A stretch of 64,000 nt of DNA from a virus. Taxonomy: Duplodnaviria; Caudoviricetes. The stretch covers positions 6,058 to 70,057 of IMG/VR virus record IMGVR_UViG_3300017791_000077. The stretch is one strand, 5' to 3'. The notes beneath the pieces were generated by a model that was given only the letters and a program-made list of their open reading frames with translations, ran no database searches and was not told where the DNA came from. A program made the translations under genes and the position numbers. Of this stretch, positions 3,830 to 25,615 are shown piece by piece. How positions within the stretch are numbered: the first letter of the stretch is position 1; each line of letters starts with the position of its first letter.

Positions 3830-4438
3830 ATGAAAGGAGATGAGGGAATGAAAATCGACATGATGCCGTTCTGTGACCCTGATTCGACGTATTACGGAAT
3901 CAATAGGCCGTGGCGAATCGGCGACATGCTATTTGCAACCGACACGCGGCTTGCGGTTGCCTGTGCGCCGGAGCTTTACGGCGGAGAAATCGCCGACGCT
4001 AAAGATGAGCGCAGGAGGCCGAAGGTAAACGAAGTTCTTGAGCCGGCGCTTTCGATTCAGAAATGGAACGATATGCCGTTCGTCAAGGAGTGCCGCGCCT
4101 GCGGTAGCACTGGTCGCGTGAAGGTGACATGCTCCGAATGCTTCGGAAGCGGGACCGTCACGTGCAACATGGAGCACGAGCATGATTGCGATATGTGCGA
4201 CGAAGAGGGGGAAGAGATTTCAGACTGCAAGCACTGCCCCCCCGAGTTTGGAGTCGGAAATAGGAAGATTGCGTCGTGGATTCTCAGGAGAATCTTGCGC
4301 CTGCCGAACGTCAAATGGGCCGTAACGACTGACGACTGCAATCAGATTGTGTTCGTGAAATTCGATGGCGGATATGGCGCGATGATGCCGATCCAGCAGG
4401 AGGTTCGAGAGAAGATTAAGTCGGGGGCGTGTCGATGA
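3830..4438 (+). CDS. Beta-clamp-like fragment with inserted DnaJ-type Zn finger (tentative)
   Basis: FATDTRLAV resembles DnaN ATDGHRLA; C-terminal GGYGAMMP; CRACGSTG, CSECFGSG, CDMC, CKHC. Confidence 0.55.
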   Translation: MKGDEGMKIDMMPFCDPDSTYYGINRPWRIGDMLFATDTRLAVACAPELYGGEIADAKDERRRPKVNEVLEPALSIQKWNDMPFVKECRACGSTGRVKVTCSECFGSGTVTCNMEHEHDCDMCDEEGEEISDCKHCPPEFGVGNRKIASWILRRILRLPNVKWAVTTDDCNQIVFVKFDGGYGAMMPIQQEVREKIKSGACR

Positions 4439-20445: not shown

Positions 20446-20864
20446 GCCAGACGCGCCGTTCATTCTTCGGGAGCCTTGCGGCATTCGTGGCTGCGCCGCT
20501 GGCGTGGCGTCCGAAGTTCATTCTCGGCGGACAGCGCGCCGCAAAGACGCTTTCGAGCGCGACTGCGACCACTGCATCGACGGTGGCAGAACTCTTACCT
20601 CCGACAGCGGTGATATGGCAGGGCAGCCTGGAGCGGGTCGTGGATCTGGCGGGCGCGTTCCCGGAAGTTCACGAGATCATTGTCGGGGAGAGCTATTTTT
20701 CAGGCGGACCGCCTGATTTCCGAGACGGTCATCTTCTTGTCCGCGGCGAGCGGTACGACTTTGCTGGCTACGACATCACGAATCGCAGAGTCAGGTTCCG
20801 GCGTGCTGCTTCTTCTTCCGCTCAGACGAACCTCCGTTGCGTTCCCCGTGTCGCAGATGTATAA
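20442..20864 (+). CDS. Twin-arginine (Tat) signal-containing protein
   Basis: MSQTRRSFFGSLAAFVAAPLA. Confidence 0.7.
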   Translation: MSQTRRSFFGSLAAFVAAPLAWRPKFILGGQRAAKTLSSATATTASTVAELLPPTAVIWQGSLERVVDLAGAFPEVHEIIVGESYFSGGPPDFRDGHLLVRGERYDFAGYDITNRRVRFRRAASSSAQTNLRCVPRVADV

Positions 20865-20873
20865 ATCGTATTG

Positions 20874-20967
20874 AGGATTTCGAGAGTCGCTGTGGTGTAG
20901 ATTAGAGTTACTTCTTGCTAAAGAAAAGACACTCTAGTCGCCGTTTCCCAGCGTCTCTCGAAATCTT
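20874..20967 (+). ncRNA. Y-RNA/YrlA-like structured RNA upstream of Ro60
   Basis: 13-bp AGGATTTCGAGAG/CTCTCGAAATCTT plus CGCTG/CAGCG terminal stem; GATTAGAGT/ACTCTAGTC; TTCTT-GCTA-AAGAA; adjacent to TROVE gene. Confidence 0.6.
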
Positions 20968-20988
20968 CTTGCCTTTCAGGAGATGGCA

Positions 20989-22362
20989 ATGGTCGCGGTC
21001 AATAAAAGGGCCACGTCTCGCTCTGAGGAGCGTCTGGCCGGCGGATTCGGGAACCTCGCAGCGAAGCAGGACGCCGAAGCTCATCTTCGCCGATGCGTAC
21101 TGACTTGCCTGTTGTGGGAAGACAACGCCTACATCGACGGCGTGTCGGTCGCGCAGGACATTGCTGCTCTGATCCCCAGCGTGCCGCCGCAGACGGTCTC
21201 AGAAATTGCCGTGGAAGCGCGCTACGAACAGAAGCTCCGGCATGTTCCGCTGTTCATCTGCCGTGAAATGGCGCGGCACGAGAGCCACAAGCATCTCGTC
21301 GCCACCACCCTGTCAGAAGTCATCAACCGTCCCGACGAGATGACCGAGTTTGTTTCGCTCTACTGGAAGGACGGCAAGCAGCCGCTGTCCGCGCAGGCGA
21401 AGCGGGGGCTGGCCGATGCGTTCGTGAAGTTCAACGAATACCAGTTAGCGAAATACAACCGGAAGAAAGACGTGTCGCTGAGGGACGTTCTGCGGCTCTG
21501 CCATCCGAAGCCGAAGGACGCCGCGCAGGCCGACCTGTGGAAGCGGCTGCTGACGGACAAGCTCGACGTGCCCGATACGTGGGAGGTCGGGATTTCTGCG
21601 GCCAAGTCGGATCAGGAAAAGAAGGCAGTCTGGGAGCGGCTGATCGAGACGAAGAAGCTCGGCGCGTTCGCGTTCCTGAAGAACCTGCGCAACATGATTG
21701 CGACTGACGTGACGCCTTCCGTGATCCGCGAGGGGCTGCTGAATCTCAACAAAGAAATGCTGCTGCCGATCGACTTCCTGAAGGCCGAGAAGTACGCCTC
21801 CGACTACTCACGGGAGCTTGAGCGGGCGATGCTCGACTGCACCGCTCAGTGGGACAAGCTGCCGGGCAAGACGGTTCTGATCGTTGACGTTTCCGGTTCG
21901 ATGGGAACCAAGCTGTCCAGCAAAGCGGAGTTCTCGCGGATGGATGCGGCGGCGGCGATGGCGGTGCTCACCGCCGAGATTTGCGAGTCTGTGTCGATCT
22001 ATGCGACGGCCGGCAGCGACTGGAAACGAGAGCACCAGACGGCAAAGGTGCGGCCGTACCACGGATTCGCGCTCTCGAAGGAAATTCTAGACCATGCTCG
22101 CGCGCTTGGCGGCGGCGGAATCTTCACCCGTCAGTGCCTCGAATATGTCAGGGAGCAGGAGCAAGAAACCCCGGATCGAATCATCGTCTTCAGCGATAGC
22201 CAGGACTGCGATCTCAAGGGCACTCTGCCGCAACCGTTCGGGCACCGCAACTACATCGTGGACATCTCAAGCCACCGCAACGGCGTAAATTACAAAGGCG
22301 TGTGGAGCGCTGAGATTTCCGGCTGGTCGGAGCGGTTCCTGAATTTTATTGCGCACCAATAG
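20989..22362 (+). CDS. rsr: Ro60/TROVE-domain ribonucleoprotein (TROVE plus vWA)
   Basis: LRRCVLTCLLWED, EYQLAKYNR, LRDVLRLCHPKP, DTWEV..S, LKNLRNM, vWA MIDAS DVSGSM, IVFSDSQ; AGGAG is 6 nt before ATG 20989. Confidence 0.92.
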   Translation: MVAVNKRATSRSEERLAGGFGNLAAKQDAEAHLRRCVLTCLLWEDNAYIDGVSVAQDIAALIPSVPPQTVSEIAVEARYEQKLRHVPLFICREMARHESHKHLVATTLSEVINRPDEMTEFVSLYWKDGKQPLSAQAKRGLADAFVKFNEYQLAKYNRKKDVSLRDVLRLCHPKPKDAAQADLWKRLLTDKLDVPDTWEVGISAAKSDQEKKAVWERLIETKKLGAFAFLKNLRNMIATDVTPSVIREGLLNLNKEMLLPIDFLKAEKYASDYSRELERAMLDCTAQWDKLPGKTVLIVDVSGSMGTKLSSKAEFSRMDAAAAMAVLTAEICESVSIYATAGSDWKREHQTAKVRPYHGFALSKEILDHARALGGGGIFTRQCLEYVREQEQETPDRIIVFSDSQDCDLKGTLPQPFGHRNYIVDISSHRNGVNYKGVWSAEISGWSERFLNFIAHQ

Positions 22363-25300
22363 GTCGCTTCTTCCTCCGCTTCGCCTCTTCCGCAGCGCGT
22401 TTCTTGATCGCCATCAGGGCTTGCATGCGCTTCCGCGTTATCTCGTCGATCTCCAGCGGCAAGCCCGTCCTTTGGTCCTTCTTGACGTACACGTCGGTCG
22501 ATGAGCCGATGTTCGGATCTTCGCGCAGAAGCTCTTGAAGCATCTTCGATTCGGCCATTCGCTGCTGACGTTCCATTCCGCCAGACGTGTCGCTGATTCG
22601 CAGCCCGGTTCCGAGATTCAGCGCAGTGACCCACGGTTCCTTGCGCCCCCCGAACAGCTTCATGTCTTCCAATTGCCGCTCTGACGTGGCGAGACGTGCG
22701 CCCGGCGAGTTGTGGATGATCTGGTTCAGGAGCACGTTCTTGGTCGGATGCTGGAACGACTCTTCAACCGGACGCCCCGTGAACGTGTTGATGCCTGTGG
22801 CTGTTTCGAGCGGGCCTTTCACGAGCGGGTTCGTCTGCGAGATGAACTTCTGCCCGGTGCGCTTCACGGTGCCCAGTGCTGTCGGGCCTTTGACGAACAG
22901 ATCCGCGAACTGATCCGTGGGCAATCCGAGTCCCGAGAGGTAGCGGTCGCCGCCCAAGTTGACCGACATGCCTTCCCCGACGTAGGGAGGCACGAATTCG
23001 TCTTTGGAGCGGCCGGTGTTCGAGGCGCGGATCGTTTGGGCTGTGACGCCGCCGGGACGCTCCGCGACTTGCTGGAGCATGACGGGGATGATTTTCCGTT
23101 GCCACGTGTAGAACGGGACCAGTCGCTTCATAACCTCTTTTTCGAACGGGGCGAGTTCATCATACGAGACTTGAAGCTGCCGCACTTTAGCAGCGGCCTC
23201 TTCCGCCCCCATTCCGAGCTTCTTTCGGAGGTAAAGATACATCGGCACGCGGTTCATAAACTCGACCTGCCGGTTCAACTCTCCACCGATCTGCGCCGGC
23301 GTGGCGAGTGCGGTCACAGCGGCTTTCACCGGCTTGGAGCGCGCGACTCGCGTATCAGCGAGCAACCCCGGCCCGAGTCCGAAACCTTCCTCTTTCGCTT
23401 TGGCAAATCCGCCCTTCACGTTCTGCAACATGCCGGCAGGAGTCAACGGGTTGGGCGTGTTCTTCAGCGACCATCCGAGTTCCGTTCCGAGGGCACCGAT
23501 GTCGGTCTGGTCATAGACGCGGTGGGCGGCCAGTTCTTCCAGCAGGTCACGGAACGATCCGGGATTCTTCAGCATCTGATGCGCGTCGCGGACGGCCTGC
23601 ACGTACGCGCCCAAGTGCTTGATGTCGGGGATCTCGTTCGAGGCGATGTTCATCCACTGGCCGCTCGCCAGGTTCCGCGCAGCGAATGCAGGCCACGGCA
23701 GCGTGACGTTCTGCTTGAACCACTTCGTCATGCCGTCAACGTGATCCAGCGTGGCTTTCAGCCATTCCGGCTTCTGGCTCTTTTTGGTCATCGCGAGCAC
23801 GGCGTTCGCCACGTCCGGCGCGACTCCCATGCCCTGCGGGACAGCGCCGAAGCGTTTAGCGAATCCCTCCATCGCCGTCTGTGGATTCATGCCGGCGTCT
23901 TTGAACAGGGTCGCCAGATCGACGCCTCCAGGCACGAGAGAGTTCTTGATCGTCTCGTGAGTCGCCCGCATTCTCCCGACGCTGCTCGCAAGTTCTGTCC
24001 CGTATTTGTAGGCGTCGTGGGAAAACTGACCGTACAGTTCGTTGCCGGTTTTATTGAAGAACTGAACGGCCTTGTTGCGCGAGATGAGGTGTTCAGCGAG
24101 GTCGTGGCCGAACTGAAGCGGCGTCTCGGCGGTGCCTTTCAGCGTCTCGGCGGCAGTCAGCGCTGCCTCTTTCGCGGCTGCATCCGCTTTGCGAAGCTGC
24201 GGCCCGAGCTTGCGTTTCATGCCGGGGTTGGCCGCCAGAGATTCCTGCAACTGCGTGAACTTCGCAATCGCCTCGTCGGCCGCTGCCTTCGTGCGCGTGA
24301 TCGCTTCCCCGTGTCGGGATTCGGCGGCCGTCTTCAGGAACGACCCGTACTCGTTGGCGAGGTGCTGCGCCAGATGCGGCACAACGTCGCCACCCTTAGC
24401 AGCCTCTTTGGTCATCAAGGCTACAGTCGGATCTCGATACACGTCGCTGATGATCGTCTCGGGCAGGAACTTCGTCGGCACGACGCGGGCTTTGGCGCTA
24501 TCGACGGTCCCGCGGTAGGCGTGCGTTTCGATCGCCTCCTGTCCTTTCGGGTGCATGTACCGCGGGGCGTGCTTCATGCTCTCGGTCTGGTGCATCGCGG
24601 CTGAGTTGCCGCCGAGATCGAGGAATTCGTTCCAGAGATTGTCCGTCGTCGCGCCCCAATCGCTGACTGCTTTCTGGAGCGCTTCCGCTGTCTGCCCGTG
24701 ATACGGCAGTTGATGGCGCGCAAAAGCGTGTGTCGGCTTCATGCCCTCCGCTGTGGCTCGTGCGACCTTCTCGAACGTCTGGGGAAGGTTCTCAGGGATC
24801 GGGATGCTGTCCTTGCCGAACGTCGTGGCGTAGGCGTTGCGGATGTCTTCCAGACTGCCGGCCAGCTTCGACCAGTCTTTGATCGCTTCCGGGCGGGCGA
24901 CTGCCTGTGCGGCCGTCTGTGCCTCCCCGAGCTTCTGCCCGGCAGCGCTGAGCTGCCCCTTCACCCGGTAGTCGAACAGCGCCTTCCGCCCCCGGTTCAG
25001 CGCCTCCATCCCCGGAATCGCCATCAGGGCTTTGCCGGGAGCTTCCGCGATCTTCAGAGCCGTGGCAGACTTGGCAATCTCGGGGACGTATTTCCCGCTC
25101 ACTCCCAGAAGCCCTAGCGGCCCCGTGGTGAGGCCGAAAGCCGCTTTGGCACCCTTCCCTGCTTTGGCGACGTATTTGCCCGCTGCAAGCGGTCCCAGGA
25201 GGTATGAGAGGGGGTCTGTCGCCACCTCGACGCCGAATCCTGCCACGTCCCCCAGCGCGTCTGGCAGGTCCGCGAATCCCGGCTTGTTCTTCGCCAGTCC

Positions 25301-25615
25301 CGCGTGCTGCTCCAGCAAGTCGCGTCCCGACACGGATTCCGCTGGATCGGTGAGGCCCATCGCGTCGGAGAACGGAATCAGGTTCGCCAGTTCCTTCGGC
25401 TTGCCGGCCAATAGCCCGCGGAAGGCGCGGCCGGGCTTGTCGAGTGTTTCCCCCAGGTACTGGAGGCCGCTCGTGCCGGTCGAGAGCACGTCAGAGAGGA
25501 GCGACTTTTCTTCGGCGGGGTCGAGCGGCGGGAAGGCGGCTTTGCGCTTCTGGCCGGGGATGCGCGGCATCCGCAGGCGGCGGTGGATTTCCGCTTCAGG
25601 ATCGAAGTCGAACAT
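22346..25615 (-). CDS. Large internal virion / DNA-ejection protein (large polyvalent-type C-terminal region)
   Basis: 1089 aa, Ala/Lys-rich helical; AARNLASG, VPFYTWQRK motifs; last gene of the tail module. Confidence 0.7.
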   Translation of the reverse strand: MFDFDPEAEIHRRLRMPRIPGQKRKAAFPPLDPAEEKSLLSDVLSTGTSGLQYLGETLDKPGRAFRGLLAGKPKELANLIPFSDAMGLTDPAESVSGRDLLEQHAGLAKNKPGFADLPDALGDVAGFGVEVATDPLSYLLGPLAAGKYVAKAGKGAKAAFGLTTGPLGLLGVSGKYVPEIAKSATALKIAEAPGKALMAIPGMEALNRGRKALFDYRVKGQLSAAGQKLGEAQTAAQAVARPEAIKDWSKLAGSLEDIRNAYATTFGKDSIPIPENLPQTFEKVARATAEGMKPTHAFARHQLPYHGQTAEALQKAVSDWGATTDNLWNEFLDLGGNSAAMHQTESMKHAPRYMHPKGQEAIETHAYRGTVDSAKARVVPTKFLPETIISDVYRDPTVALMTKEAAKGGDVVPHLAQHLANEYGSFLKTAAESRHGEAITRTKAAADEAIAKFTQLQESLAANPGMKRKLGPQLRKADAAAKEAALTAAETLKGTAETPLQFGHDLAEHLISRNKAVQFFNKTGNELYGQFSHDAYKYGTELASSVGRMRATHETIKNSLVPGGVDLATLFKDAGMNPQTAMEGFAKRFGAVPQGMGVAPDVANAVLAMTKKSQKPEWLKATLDHVDGMTKWFKQNVTLPWPAFAARNLASGQWMNIASNEIPDIKHLGAYVQAVRDAHQMLKNPGSFRDLLEELAAHRVYDQTDIGALGTELGWSLKNTPNPLTPAGMLQNVKGGFAKAKEEGFGLGPGLLADTRVARSKPVKAAVTALATPAQIGGELNRQVEFMNRVPMYLYLRKKLGMGAEEAAAKVRQLQVSYDELAPFEKEVMKRLVPFYTWQRKIIPVMLQQVAERPGGVTAQTIRASNTGRSKDEFVPPYVGEGMSVNLGGDRYLSGLGLPTDQFADLFVKGPTALGTVKRTGQKFISQTNPLVKGPLETATGINTFTGRPVEESFQHPTKNVLLNQIIHNSPGARLATSERQLEDMKLFGGRKEPWVTALNLGTGLRISDTSGGMERQQRMAESKMLQELLREDPNIGSSTDVYVKKDQRTGLPLEIDEITRKRMQALMAIKKRAAEEAKRRKKRPIGAQ

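What the first reader, a model, noticed from the sequence alone, without database searches (positions are those of the whole stretch)
20874..20967. Y-RNA-like rod with a tRNA-like D-arm motif, fused as the leader of the Ro60 gene
The 94-nt element folds into an 18-bp interrupted terminal stem, a pyrimidine-rich internal loop, a 9-bp inner helix and an apical hairpin, ending about 20 nt before the start codon. GTGGTGTAG..AGAGTTACTTC resembles, from my recollection, the D-arm region of YrlA RNAs (GTAG/TTAC can pair), but the T-arm (GGTTCGA) is absent and replaced by a strand pairing with the D-loop. It may be a non-canonical Y RNA, or a cis element through which Ro60 autoregulates, with two alternative folds.
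Basis: partly seen in the sequence, partly recalled or inferred. Interest (0 to 1): 0.78.

Follow-up and report, generated by a model that had tools for sequence, protein, structure and literature searches.

The report
Short Y RNA leading phage Ro60 gene
The 94-base hairpin in front of this phage's Ro60-like gene belongs to a large, conserved family of small RNAs that sit beside such genes in phages and bacteria, so it is most likely the protein's partner "Y RNA" in a short form lacking the usual tRNA-like part: an ordinary arrangement, though this short form is not yet catalogued.

Summary
The hairpin is real: -44 kcal/mol, z -6.6. It lies 21 nt before the likely start of a TROVE+vWA (Ro60-like) gene in a complete 70-kb phage genome.

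It is not a one-off. A covariance model built from 15 look-alikes upstream of homologous genes scores it 61.7 bits (E 3e-16). The same model finds more than 220 further copies in about 100 phage and bacterial Ro60 loci. All lie on the gene's strand and almost all upstream. In 106 aligned copies, all 15 base pairs show compensatory changes and 95.5% of cells are paired.

All copies share one "handle": stem, U-GG-YGWA-G, a 9-bp helix, UACUUC, then GCUUGUUCCC and stem. Longer copies carry a tRNA-like insert and hit Rfam YrlA below its threshold. The window's copy carries only a small hairpin there. It is the only such RNA in the genome, which has no YrlA and no tRNA match.

The proposed alternative fold has no covariation support.

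Best reading: a short-form Y RNA, co-transcribed with Ro60 and bound by it. It is a new member of a known kind. Binding, processing and autoregulation are untested. This scan has noted similar Ro60 "handle" RNAs on other DNA.

The parts
20837..20865 (+). Candidate sigma-70-type promoter read by eye: TTGCGT (20837-20842), 17-nt spacer, TATAAA (20860-20865). This predicts a start at about 20872-20874, the base of the hairpin.
   Evidence: Sequence. It matches only 8 of 12 consensus positions and the scan tool did not call it. The geometry matches relatives, where consensus promoters end 6-8 nt before the first element (L015 12/12, L004 10/12 with TG, L021 11/12 with TG). Weak, inferred.
20874..20967 (+). 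The whole element: a 94-nt short-form Y-RNA-like hairpin.
   Evidence: Fold -44 kcal/mol, z -6.63. R1 match 20881-20963, 61.7 bits, E 3e-16. It is the only R1 match in the 70,057-bp virus.
20875..20892 (+). 5' strand of the terminal (closing) stem. It pairs with 20949-20966 and has a U20887/U20954 mismatch.
   Evidence: The four pairs next to the handle covary across the family. The orthologue L015:2406-2416 with 2473-2483 has an unrelated sequence that also pairs.
20893..20900 (+). 5' handle motif UGGUGUAG: bulged U, GG paired to C20947-C20948, unpaired UGUA, then G opening the inner helix. Probable Ro60 contact.
   Evidence: In 106 aligned members U is 106/106, GG 104/106, Y is U62/C44, G 105, W is A64/U34, A 100 and G 92. 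The 4-mer is UGAA in 39, CGAA in 19, UGUA in 15 and CGUA in 15. It corresponds to GNCGAAN0-1G of Chen 2014. CGAA point mutants weaken phiLo Ro60 binding 3-4 fold.
20900..20908 (+). 5' strand of the 9-bp inner helix. It pairs with 20931-20939.
   Evidence: All nine pairs have compensatory changes in the family.
20909..20914 (+). Invariant UACUUC at the top of the inner helix. With U20908 it forms the YUAY element.
   Evidence: U 106, A 104, C 105, U 103, U 105, C 102 of 106. YUAY begins the variable loop in YrlA.
20911..20928 (+). Apical mini-hairpin (CUUCUU / AAGA..AG). It occupies the place of the tRNA-like effector module of long forms.
   Evidence: Of 106 aligned members, 59 are 105 nt or shorter and none of these has a T-arm; of the 47 longer ones, 35 carry GGTTCRA.
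20940..20949 (+). 3' handle strand GCCGUUUCCC (family consensus GCUUGUUCCC). GCCGUUU is unpaired; CC pairs with G20894-G20895; the last C pairs with G20892.
   Evidence: UU and CC are 102-106 of 106. The window differs from the consensus at three loop positions.
20978..20982 (+). Shine-Dalgarno AGGAG of the Ro60-like gene, 10 nt after the hairpin. No terminator lies between them.
   Evidence: Sequence. No terminator-like site in 20700-21100.
20989..22362 (+). Ro60-like gene (TROVE + vWA with DVSGS MIDAS motif; 457 aa from ATG 20989, or 459 aa from ATG 20983).
   Evidence: Pfam TROVE E 8e-18, VWA_2 and vWA_Ro60 weak. phrog_850 'RNA-binding protein' E 2e-34. Full-length match to Thermus phage phiLo Ro60, PDB 9KOP/9L5Y, E 1e-13. 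Six of the eight basic residues shown to matter for RNA binding in phiLo Ro60 align with K or R here (low-identity alignment).

Best explanation
The element is a short-form Y RNA, the RNA partner of the phage's own Ro60-like protein.

Shown: it has the conserved two-helix handle found in every member of a large RNA family that lies beside this clade of Ro60 genes. The handle is: closing stem; bulged U; GG:CC; an internal loop with YGWA facing GCUUGUU; a 9-bp helix; UACUUC. Longer paralogues of the family carry a tRNA-like module and are recognisable as YrlA-type Y RNAs.

Inferred: the RNA is made as the 5' end of the Ro60 transcript, from a weak promoter just upstream or by read-through, because no terminator separates it from the gene. 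Ro60 binds the handle, mainly its 5' strand, on the outer face of the protein ring. Host nucleases then trim the transcript to the protected hairpin, leaving an RNA of about 85-95 nt.

The RNA has no tRNA-like effector module. It therefore most likely acts as a stabiliser or gate of Ro60, or as a simple tether through its small pyrimidine/purine-rich apical hairpin to a host single-strand RNA-binding nuclease such as PNPase. That would redirect host RNA decay during infection.

While still part of the mRNA, the bound handle sits 10 nt from the ribosome-binding site. It could also damp Ro60 translation. That step is speculative.
For: Structure: (z -6.63).

Family membership: R1 gives 61.7 bits, E 3e-16.

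Family reality:
- 15 of 15 pairs have compensatory changes.
- 93.8% and 95.5% of cells are paired. Covariation scores are 0.786 and 0.706, against at most 0.17 when partners are slid. A first alignment made independently of the model gave 12 of 15 compensatory pairs.

Linkage to Ro60:
- All 40 hits in 22 phage or MAG loci and all 184 hits in 77 bacterial loci are on the gene's strand. Almost all lie within 2.5 kb upstream.
- There is only one hit in the whole 70-kb virus.

Link to known Y RNAs:
- Long-form members in the same arrays hit Rfam RF02553 YrlA at 32-49 bits, E 7e-8 to 4e-3.
- The handle column holds the published CGAA motif in 19 of 106 members and the window's UGUA in 15 of 106.
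- UUAC equals YUAY.
- The Rfam YrlA consensus ends (GGCGAAUG-helix-CUAC ... helix-ACUUGUCGCC) have the same layout as the R1 consensus (compared by eye).

Orthologue: L015, with a protein 67% identical, has the same short element 15 nt before its gene. It shows compensatory changes and an unrelated but pairing closing stem.

Precedents:
- Short hairpin Y RNAs YrlB and Yrn2, and Y RNAs processed from one precursor upstream of rsr in M. smegmatis.
- Thermus phage phiLo Ro60 binds Y-like RNAs from its own genome and forms complexes with host PNPase.

Protein: homologous to phiLo Ro60 over its full length, with the basic RNA-binding patch largely kept.
Against: - There is no direct evidence of a discrete RNA, of Ro60 binding or of processing. 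No public sequencing run could be listed.
- Rfam YrlA and Y_RNA models do not match the element at E<=10.
- The strict GNCGAAN0-1G motif is not met: GGUGUAG matches 5 of 7 positions. In phiLo, C-to-U and A-to-U changes in CGAA weakened binding 3-4 fold.
- The window's 3' handle strand departs from the consensus at three positions.
- The promoter is weak and was not called by the scan.
- No terminator defines a 3' end.
- The experimentally validated Y RNAs (Salmonella, Mycobacterium, Deinococcus, phiLo Yrl1 and Yrl2) could not be shown to match R1. Only phiLo was available, and there R1 matched a different, unreported site.
Confidence: 0.75

Rival explanations
1. A purely cis-acting leader. The hairpin is never released. 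It serves as an autogenous operator, where Ro60 binds its own 5' UTR and blocks the ribosome-binding site 10 nt away. It may also act as a 5' stabilising hairpin for the Ro60 mRNA.
For: The element starts at about the predicted transcript start and ends 10 nt before the Shine-Dalgarno, with no terminator. It is the only copy in the genome. In several relatives the last element also abuts the ribosome-binding site; in L012 the GGAGG overlaps the closing stem.
Against: The same module occurs in arrays of two to six or more copies. It carries swappable inserts, including tRNA-like domains. It is sometimes found downstream of the gene (L008:4296-4445, crAss001 L026:3962-4059, phiLo L029:4016-4095). 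In L001 and L005 it is sometimes separated from the gene by a terminator-like hairpin with a U-run. That behaviour fits trans-acting RNA genes, not an operator. The two roles are not exclusive.
Confidence: 0.12
2. A decayed relic of a YrlA gene. It lost its tRNA-like module and is no longer functional, retained only as an untranslated spacer.
For: There is no tRNA-like domain. The handle departs from the consensus at the CGAA positions and at three positions of the 3' strand. Chen 2014 report at least one tRNA-like Y RNA per species.
Against: Short forms without a T-arm are the majority of strong hits (59 of 106) and keep both helices by compensatory change. The orthologous short element in L015 is conserved in position and structure despite very different base composition, 31% against 47% GC. 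The window's copy pairs perfectly in the inner helix and has an unusually long closing stem. UGUA is a common allowed variant, found in 15 of 106 members.
Confidence: 0.05
3. A structural element unrelated to Ro60. Candidates are an RNase III processing site, a transcription attenuator between the upstream gene and the TROVE gene, or the binding site of another phage protein.
For: A long, nearly perfect helix (12+5 bp) could be an RNase III substrate. The position is intergenic, with no strong promoter.
Against: The invariant loop sequences are not needed for a nuclease site or an attenuator. There is no U-run after the stem. Across about 100 loci from many phyla, with otherwise unrelated neighbours, the element co-occurs strictly with one protein family, the Ro60-like TROVE clade, and on the same strand.
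Confidence: 0.05

Closest known systems
YrlA-type bacterial and phage Y RNAs (Rfam RF02553; Chen et al. 2014, PMC4201824; Wang et al. 2018, 10.1101/312249)
   Same: Encoded next to a Ro60 orthologue, on the same strand and within 4 kb. The closing stem is formed by the 5' and 3' ends. Near the 5' end is a motif of the GNCGAA(N)G type, followed by a helix and YUAY. Long-form members of the window's family in other loci hit RF02553 below its threshold and carry T, acceptor-like and D arms in the YrlA order.
   Different: The window's RNA has no tRNA-like effector module; an 18-nt hairpin stands in its place. It does not match RF02553 at E<=10. Its motif is GGUGUAG, not GNCGAAG. In this family only GG pairs with the 3' strand, and YGWA is looped out opposite a conserved GCUUGUU. 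In the Rfam consensus GGCGA is drawn paired.
Short hairpin Y RNAs: S. Typhimurium YrlB, M. smegmatis YrlB, D. radiodurans Yrn2 (Chen et al. 2013 and 2014)
   Same: [quoted passage not shown] They are encoded beside rsr together with, or processed from the same precursor as, other Y RNAs. In M. smegmatis both lie upstream of rsr.
   Different: Those RNAs 'eluded bioinformatic discovery', and YrlB had detectable orthologues only within Salmonella. The window's RNA belongs to a sequence- and structure-conserved family detectable across many phyla. Those species also have a tRNA-like Y RNA; this phage has none. I could not fetch those loci to test them with R1.
Thermus phage phiLo Ro60 with Yrl1 and Yrl2 (Hu et al. 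2025, PMC12135203; PDB 9KOP, 9L5Y)
   Same: A phage-encoded Ro60 homologous to the window's protein (E 1e-13, full length). It binds stem-bulge-stem RNAs encoded by the phage itself next to the gene. A CGAA-type motif in the bulge contributes to affinity. The complex engages host PNPase.
   Different: R1 did not match the noncoding stretch upstream of the gene, where the paper places Yrl1 and Yrl2. It matched a site 7 nt downstream of phiLo Ro60 instead. The window's motif is UGUA, and no biochemical data exist for it.
Metazoan Y RNAs (Rfam RF00019) with Ro60
   Same: About 100 nt, with a terminal stem carrying the Ro60 site whose 5' strand resembles GGUCCGA, an internal loop, and a modular design.
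   Different: No match to RF00019. The metazoan RNAs are separate Pol III genes, not part of the Ro60 mRNA, and their loop sequences differ.

Membership tests
Handle family defined here (covariance model R1, built from 15 short elements upstream of homologous TROVE genes) | Significant match to the model over its full length | tested here: met
   Window 20881-20963 scores 61.7 bits, E 3e-16, over model positions 1-82. Caveat: the window's own sequence was one of the 15 used to build the model. The 14 others alone show the same motifs.
Handle family defined here (R1) | Two helices supported by compensatory changes, with invariant U-GG...G, UACUUC and UUCC(C) | tested here: met
   15 of 15 pairs are compensatory. 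The window carries every invariant base.
Handle family defined here (R1) | Same strand as, and close to, a Ro60-like TROVE gene | tested here: met
   The element ends 21 nt upstream of ATG 20989, on the + strand. All 224 family hits in other loci are on the gene's strand.
YrlA (Rfam RF02553; Chen 2014) | tRNA-like domain with T, acceptor-like and D arms | tested here: not met
   No GGTTCRANYCC in the window. No RF02553 or tRNA match in the whole virus at E<=1. ARAGORN finds none. No RF02553 hit in 20700-21100 at E<=10.
YrlA (Rfam RF02553; Chen 2014) | GNCGAAN0-1G motif near the 5' end | tested here: not met
   The window has GGUGUAG, matching 5 of 7 positions. The aligned column is CGAA in 19, UGAA in 39, UGUA in 15 and CGUA in 15 of 106 family members. 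The motif is therefore a tolerated variant within the family, not the strict consensus.
YrlA (Rfam RF02553; Chen 2014) | Within 4 kb of the Ro60 orthologue, on the same strand | tested here: met
YrlA (Rfam RF02553; Chen 2014) | Conserved YUAY after the first helix | tested here: met
   UUAC at 20908-20911.
Y RNA in the general sense (Ro60-bound ncRNA) | 80-130 nt, with a long stem formed by the 5' and 3' ends that holds the Ro60 site, and an internal loop | tested here: met
   94 nt, 19-bp interrupted stem, asymmetric 4/7 internal loop.
Y RNA in the general sense (Ro60-bound ncRNA) | Physically bound by Ro60 and stabilised by it; exists as a discrete small RNA | not testable with these tools
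   No RNA run could be listed. EMSA, RIP and Northern blots are needed.
Metazoan Y_RNA (RF00019) | Match to the Rfam model | tested here: not met
   No hit at gathering score or at E<=0.1 over the window, nor at E<=10 locally.

The most novel reading that the evidence does not exclude
This phage runs a minimal Ro60 particle. A single handle-only Y RNA with no effector (tRNA-like) module is embedded in the 5' UTR of the Ro60 mRNA and serves two roles. In cis it is an operator through which Ro60 sets its own translation. After trimming, it acts in trans as the gate or stabiliser of the protein. That would show the tRNA-like module is dispensable for Ro60 function in phages. It would also show that the conserved handle (UGG-YGWA-G / UACUUC / GCUUGUUCC), uncatalogued as far as I could find, is the true recognition unit across hundreds of bacterial and phage loci.
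Probability: 0.18. Interest if true: 0.6.

Novelty: new member of a known kind. Interest (0 to 1): 0.4.

Why it matters
Y RNAs beside bacterial and phage Ro60 genes are established, so the finding does not open a new category. It still has three uses.

- It shows that the short, non-tRNA-like Ro60 partner RNAs form a large family detectable by sequence and structure. The literature describes these RNAs as having escaped bioinformatic discovery. They share one handle with YrlA-type RNAs.
- The handle consensus across 106 members (YGWA tolerated; U, GG, UACUUC and UUCC invariant) gives concrete, testable determinants for Ro60 recognition.
- A complete phage genome with one handle-only Y RNA and no tRNA-like one is a very small natural system. 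It could be used to ask what a Y RNA does without an effector module, and whether a leader-embedded Y RNA feeds back on Ro60 synthesis.

Tried and rejected
- **Rfam over the whole window.** Gathering scores and E<=0.1 gave no hit. At E<=10 around the element only chance miRNA and ctRNA matches appeared.
- **tRNA-like parts.** ARAGORN found no tRNA or tmRNA in the window. The whole virus has no tRNA or YrlA match at E<=1. So no tRNA-like long form is hidden elsewhere.
Rejected on covariation.
- **Promoter and terminator scan of 20700-21100.** Nothing by the tool's criteria. The promoter I list is a by-eye 8/12 match, supported only by its position.
- **Public sequencing runs for 20500-22400.** None was listed, and no RNA holder was listed. 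Expression could not be examined and read laying was not used.
- **Testing R1 on experimentally validated Y RNAs.** Only Thermus phage phiLo could be fetched. R1 did not match the noncoding stretch upstream of the gene, where Yrl1 and Yrl2 are reported, and matched a site downstream of the gene instead. Loci of S. Typhimurium, M. smegmatis and D. radiodurans could not be fetched by name with these tools.
- **Literature that could not be read.** Supplementary tables of Chen 2014 are not held. The 2020 Annual Review by Sim et al. is not held.
- **My first regular-expression census of the family.** It was too strict or too loose and was replaced by the covariance model.
- **NCBIfam.** No hit for the Ro60-like protein or its neighbours.

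Full report
**1. The observation**

- The closing stem is 12+5+2 bp, interrupted by a U/U mismatch and a bulged U20893.
- An asymmetric internal loop has UGUA facing GCCGUUU.
- A 9-bp inner helix (20900-20908 with 20931-20939) carries a small apical hairpin.
- The energy is -44 kcal/mol against -21.3 +/- 3.4 for dinucleotide shuffles (z -6.63; 0 of 200 shuffles fold as well).
- The opposite strand folds less well, at -38.4.

The element is 46-47% G+C in a region of about 59% G+C. It sits in the 118-nt gap between a 214-aa ORF of unknown function (ending at 20864) and an ORF at 20983/20989-22362.

That downstream ORF is a TROVE+vWA protein:
- Pfam PF05731, E 8e-18.
- phrog_850 'RNA-binding protein', E 2e-34.
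- A full-length match to the crystallised Ro60 of Thermus phage phiLo, E 1e-13.

AGGAG at 20978-20982 favours ATG 20989 as the start.

The window is bases 6058-70057 of a 70,057-bp virus record rated 100% complete. It carries a portal gene and tail-fibre-like genes on the other strand.

**2. The element is one of a family**

I fetched 13 viral contigs and 8 species-genome contigs that encode homologues of the protein.

Upstream of nearly all of them the same words recur. GTGG(T/C)G(T/A)AG is followed by a variable helix strand and then GTTACTTC. Further on come the complementary helix strand and CG(C/T)TTGTTCCC. They often occur in two to five tandem copies.
- Some copies carry, between GTTACTTC and the returning strand, a T-arm (GGTTCGAATCC), a hairpin and a D-arm (GTAGCTCAGTTGGTAGAGC).
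- Others, like the window's, carry only a short hairpin there.

I aligned 15 short copies with MAFFT. RNAalifold predicted 15 pairs, and 12 of them showed compensatory changes.

A covariance model built from this alignment (R1) gave these results:
- It scores the window's element at 61.7 bits, E 3e-16. This is the only hit in the window and in the whole virus.
- It gives 40 hits at E<1e-5 in 22 sources.
- It gives 184 hits at E<1e-4 in 77 further bacterial Ro60 loci.
- Every hit is on the strand of the Ro60-like gene. Of the 45 hits I mapped, 42 are upstream and 3 just downstream.

On the 40-row and 106-row model alignments all 15 pairs have compensatory changes.
- Paired cells are 93.8% and 95.5%.
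- Covariation scores are 0.786 and 0.706, against at most 0.17 when partners are slid by 1-3 columns. No shuffle of 500 reaches the observed values.
- These alignments are fitted to the model. The MAFFT alignment made beforehand gave the same picture.

The closest relative is L015, whose protein is 67% identical.
- It has the orthologous short element 15 nt before its gene.
- One inner-helix pair is flipped A-U to U-A, two pairs change on one side, and the closing stem is unrelated in sequence but equally complementary.

**3. Anatomy of the shared handle**

Across 106 members the handle reads as follows:
- a closing stem, whose four proximal pairs covary;
- U (106/106);
- GG (104), paired to CC;
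- Y (U 62, C 44), G (105), W (A 64, U 34), A (100);
- G, opening a 9-bp covarying helix;
- UACUUC (102-106 each);
- a variable module;
- the returning helix strand;
- G-C-U-U-G-U-U-C-C-C;
- the closing stem.

The looped 4-mer is UGAA in 39 members, CGAA in 19, UGUA in 15 (including the window) and CGUA in 15.

The window carries every invariant base. It differs from the consensus at three positions of the 3' loop strand (GCCGUUU against GCUUGUU).

Of the 106 members, 59 are 105 nt or shorter and have no T-arm. Of the 47 longer ones, 35 carry GGTTCRA.

**4. Relation to known Y RNAs**

Chen et al. 2014 (PMC4201824) define YrlA RNAs by four features:
- proximity to Ro60, within 4 kb and on the same strand;
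- a GNCGAAN0-1G motif near the 5' end, thought to be the Ro60 contact;
- a YUAY that begins the variable loop;
- a tRNA-like domain.

They also report short hairpin Y RNAs (YrlB, Yrn2). Those have a small pyrimidine-rich loop and could not be found by homology. In M. smegmatis both Y RNAs lie upstream of rsr and come from one precursor.

Rfam holds YrlA as RF02553. Long-form members of the present family hit it at 32-49 bits, below its gathering score of 69. The printed alignment shows the score comes from the T, acceptor-like and D arms.

The ends of the Rfam consensus have the same layout as the R1 consensus. Rfam reads GGCGAAUG, helix, CUAC ... helix, ACUUGUCGCC. R1 reads UGGUGAAG, helix, UACUUC ... 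helix, CGCUUGUUCCC (my comparison by eye).

The window's element is therefore a YrlA-type Ro60-binding module without the tRNA-like effector module. It fails the YrlA membership test on the tRNA-like domain and on the strict motif. It does not match RF02553 or RF00019. It fits the general description of a Y RNA.

Hu et al. 2025 (PMC12135203) give a biochemical precedent in a phage. phiLo Ro60 binds stem-bulge-stem RNAs encoded next to its gene. Single changes in CGAA cost 3-4 fold in affinity. The RNP engages host PNPase.

The window's protein aligns with phiLo Ro60 over its whole length. It has K or R at six of the eight basic positions shown there to matter. This is a low-identity alignment, so the mapping is approximate.

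**5.

Right: it is a Y-RNA-like rod, there is no T-arm, it is the leader of the Ro60 gene, and structure is conserved among phage TROVE leaders.

Wrong: GTGGTGTAG...GTTACTTC is not a D-arm.
- The suggested GUAG/UUAC pairing is broken in 9 of 15 sequences at the U-A pair. It is no better than shuffles, 78.3% against 76.8%.
- I found no support for two alternative folds.

**6. How it is probably made and used (inferred)**

In three relatives a consensus sigma-70-type promoter ends 6-8 nt before the closing stem of the first element. These are L015 at 12/12, L004 at 10/12 with TG, and L021 at 11/12 with TG. There the RNA's 5' end is probably the transcript start.

At the same position the window has only TTGCGT-17-TATAAA (20837-20865). 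It matches 8 of 12 positions and the tool did not call it.

No terminator lies between the element and the gene in the window, L015, L004 or L021. Co-transcription with Ro60 and trimming to the protein-protected hairpin is therefore the simplest route, as in M. smegmatis.

The RNA has no effector module. I expect it to stabilise or gate Ro60, or to tether it through the small apical hairpin to a single-strand RNA-binding nuclease.

The handle lies 10 nt from the Shine-Dalgarno sequence, so feedback on translation is possible but untested.

**7. Distribution and novelty**

The protein clade has more than 522 loci in the species-genome collection. Many are in Acidobacteriota, including the cultured Granulicella rosea DSM 18704, and many carry arrays of R1 elements.

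Isolated phages also carry unannotated copies: Xanthomonas phage MET23-P3, Caulobacter phage CcrColossus, crAss001 and phiLo.

The window's phage is unusual only in having a single, handle-only copy and no tRNA-like one. Chen 2014 report at least one tRNA-like Y RNA per species.

I found no paper or Rfam family describing the short form as a family. Y RNAs next to phage Ro60 genes are published, so I class this as a new member of a known kind.

Earlier notes of this scan describe comparable Ro60 'handle' RNA sets in other phages. They did not change my reading.

No expression data could be obtained.

Noticed in passing
L029:4016-4095 (Thermus phage phiLo, MH673673.1): R1 matches a well-formed family member (22.9 bits, E 6e-6). 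It has an 11-bp closing stem, a 9-bp inner helix and a GUACUUC loop, with CCCA in place of YGWA. It starts 7 nt after the stop of the crystallised phiLo Ro60 gene and overlaps the start of annotated CDS phiLo_25. The published Yrl1 and Yrl2 are reported upstream of the gene, so this looks like a third, unreported Y-like RNA. R1 did not match the noncoding stretch upstream of the gene.
   Followed up: partly
L026:3962-4059 (Bacteroides phage crAss001, NC_049977.1): An R1 hit (27.8 bits, E 6e-7) lies 91 nt downstream of the TROVE gene gp96, which is 51% identical to the window's protein. It sits inside a roughly 900-nt stretch with no annotated feature. A second, weak hit lies at 4208-4287.
   Followed up: no
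L027:1841-2452 (Xanthomonas phage MET23-P3) and L028:1289-2410 (Caulobacter phage CcrColossus): Three and six unannotated R1 elements, short and long forms, fill the 'empty' gaps upstream of the TROVE genes of these isolated phages. In the Xanthomonas phages the gene is annotated only as a hypothetical protein.
   Followed up: partly
L065, L050, L100, L075, L081 and L090 (Granulicella rosea DSM 18704): Chromosomal Ro60-like genes of Acidobacteriota are preceded by arrays of up to six or seven R1 elements within 2.5 kb, all on the gene's strand. More than 522 loci of this protein clade exist in the species-genome collection.
   Followed up: partly
window 22346-25615 (-): A 1089-aa ORF with no Pfam, PHROG or NCBIfam match converges on the Ro60-like gene and overlaps its 3' end by 17 nt. 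The Ro60 gene is thus the last gene of the rightward block, at the point where AT skew changes sign (about 22 kb).
   Followed up: no
L002:2331-2685 and neighbouring positions: One related viral contig carries a tmRNA gene (79.7 bits) and at least six tRNA genes around its TROVE gene. It has only a weak R1 hit (16.4 bits at 2236-2328).
   Followed up: no
A1 columns 31 and 46 (window G20897 and C20911): The G of YGWA and the C of UUAC are G/C in 14 of 15 sequences and A/U in the one exception (L019a). This single joint change might hint at a tertiary contact or might be chance.
   Followed up: no
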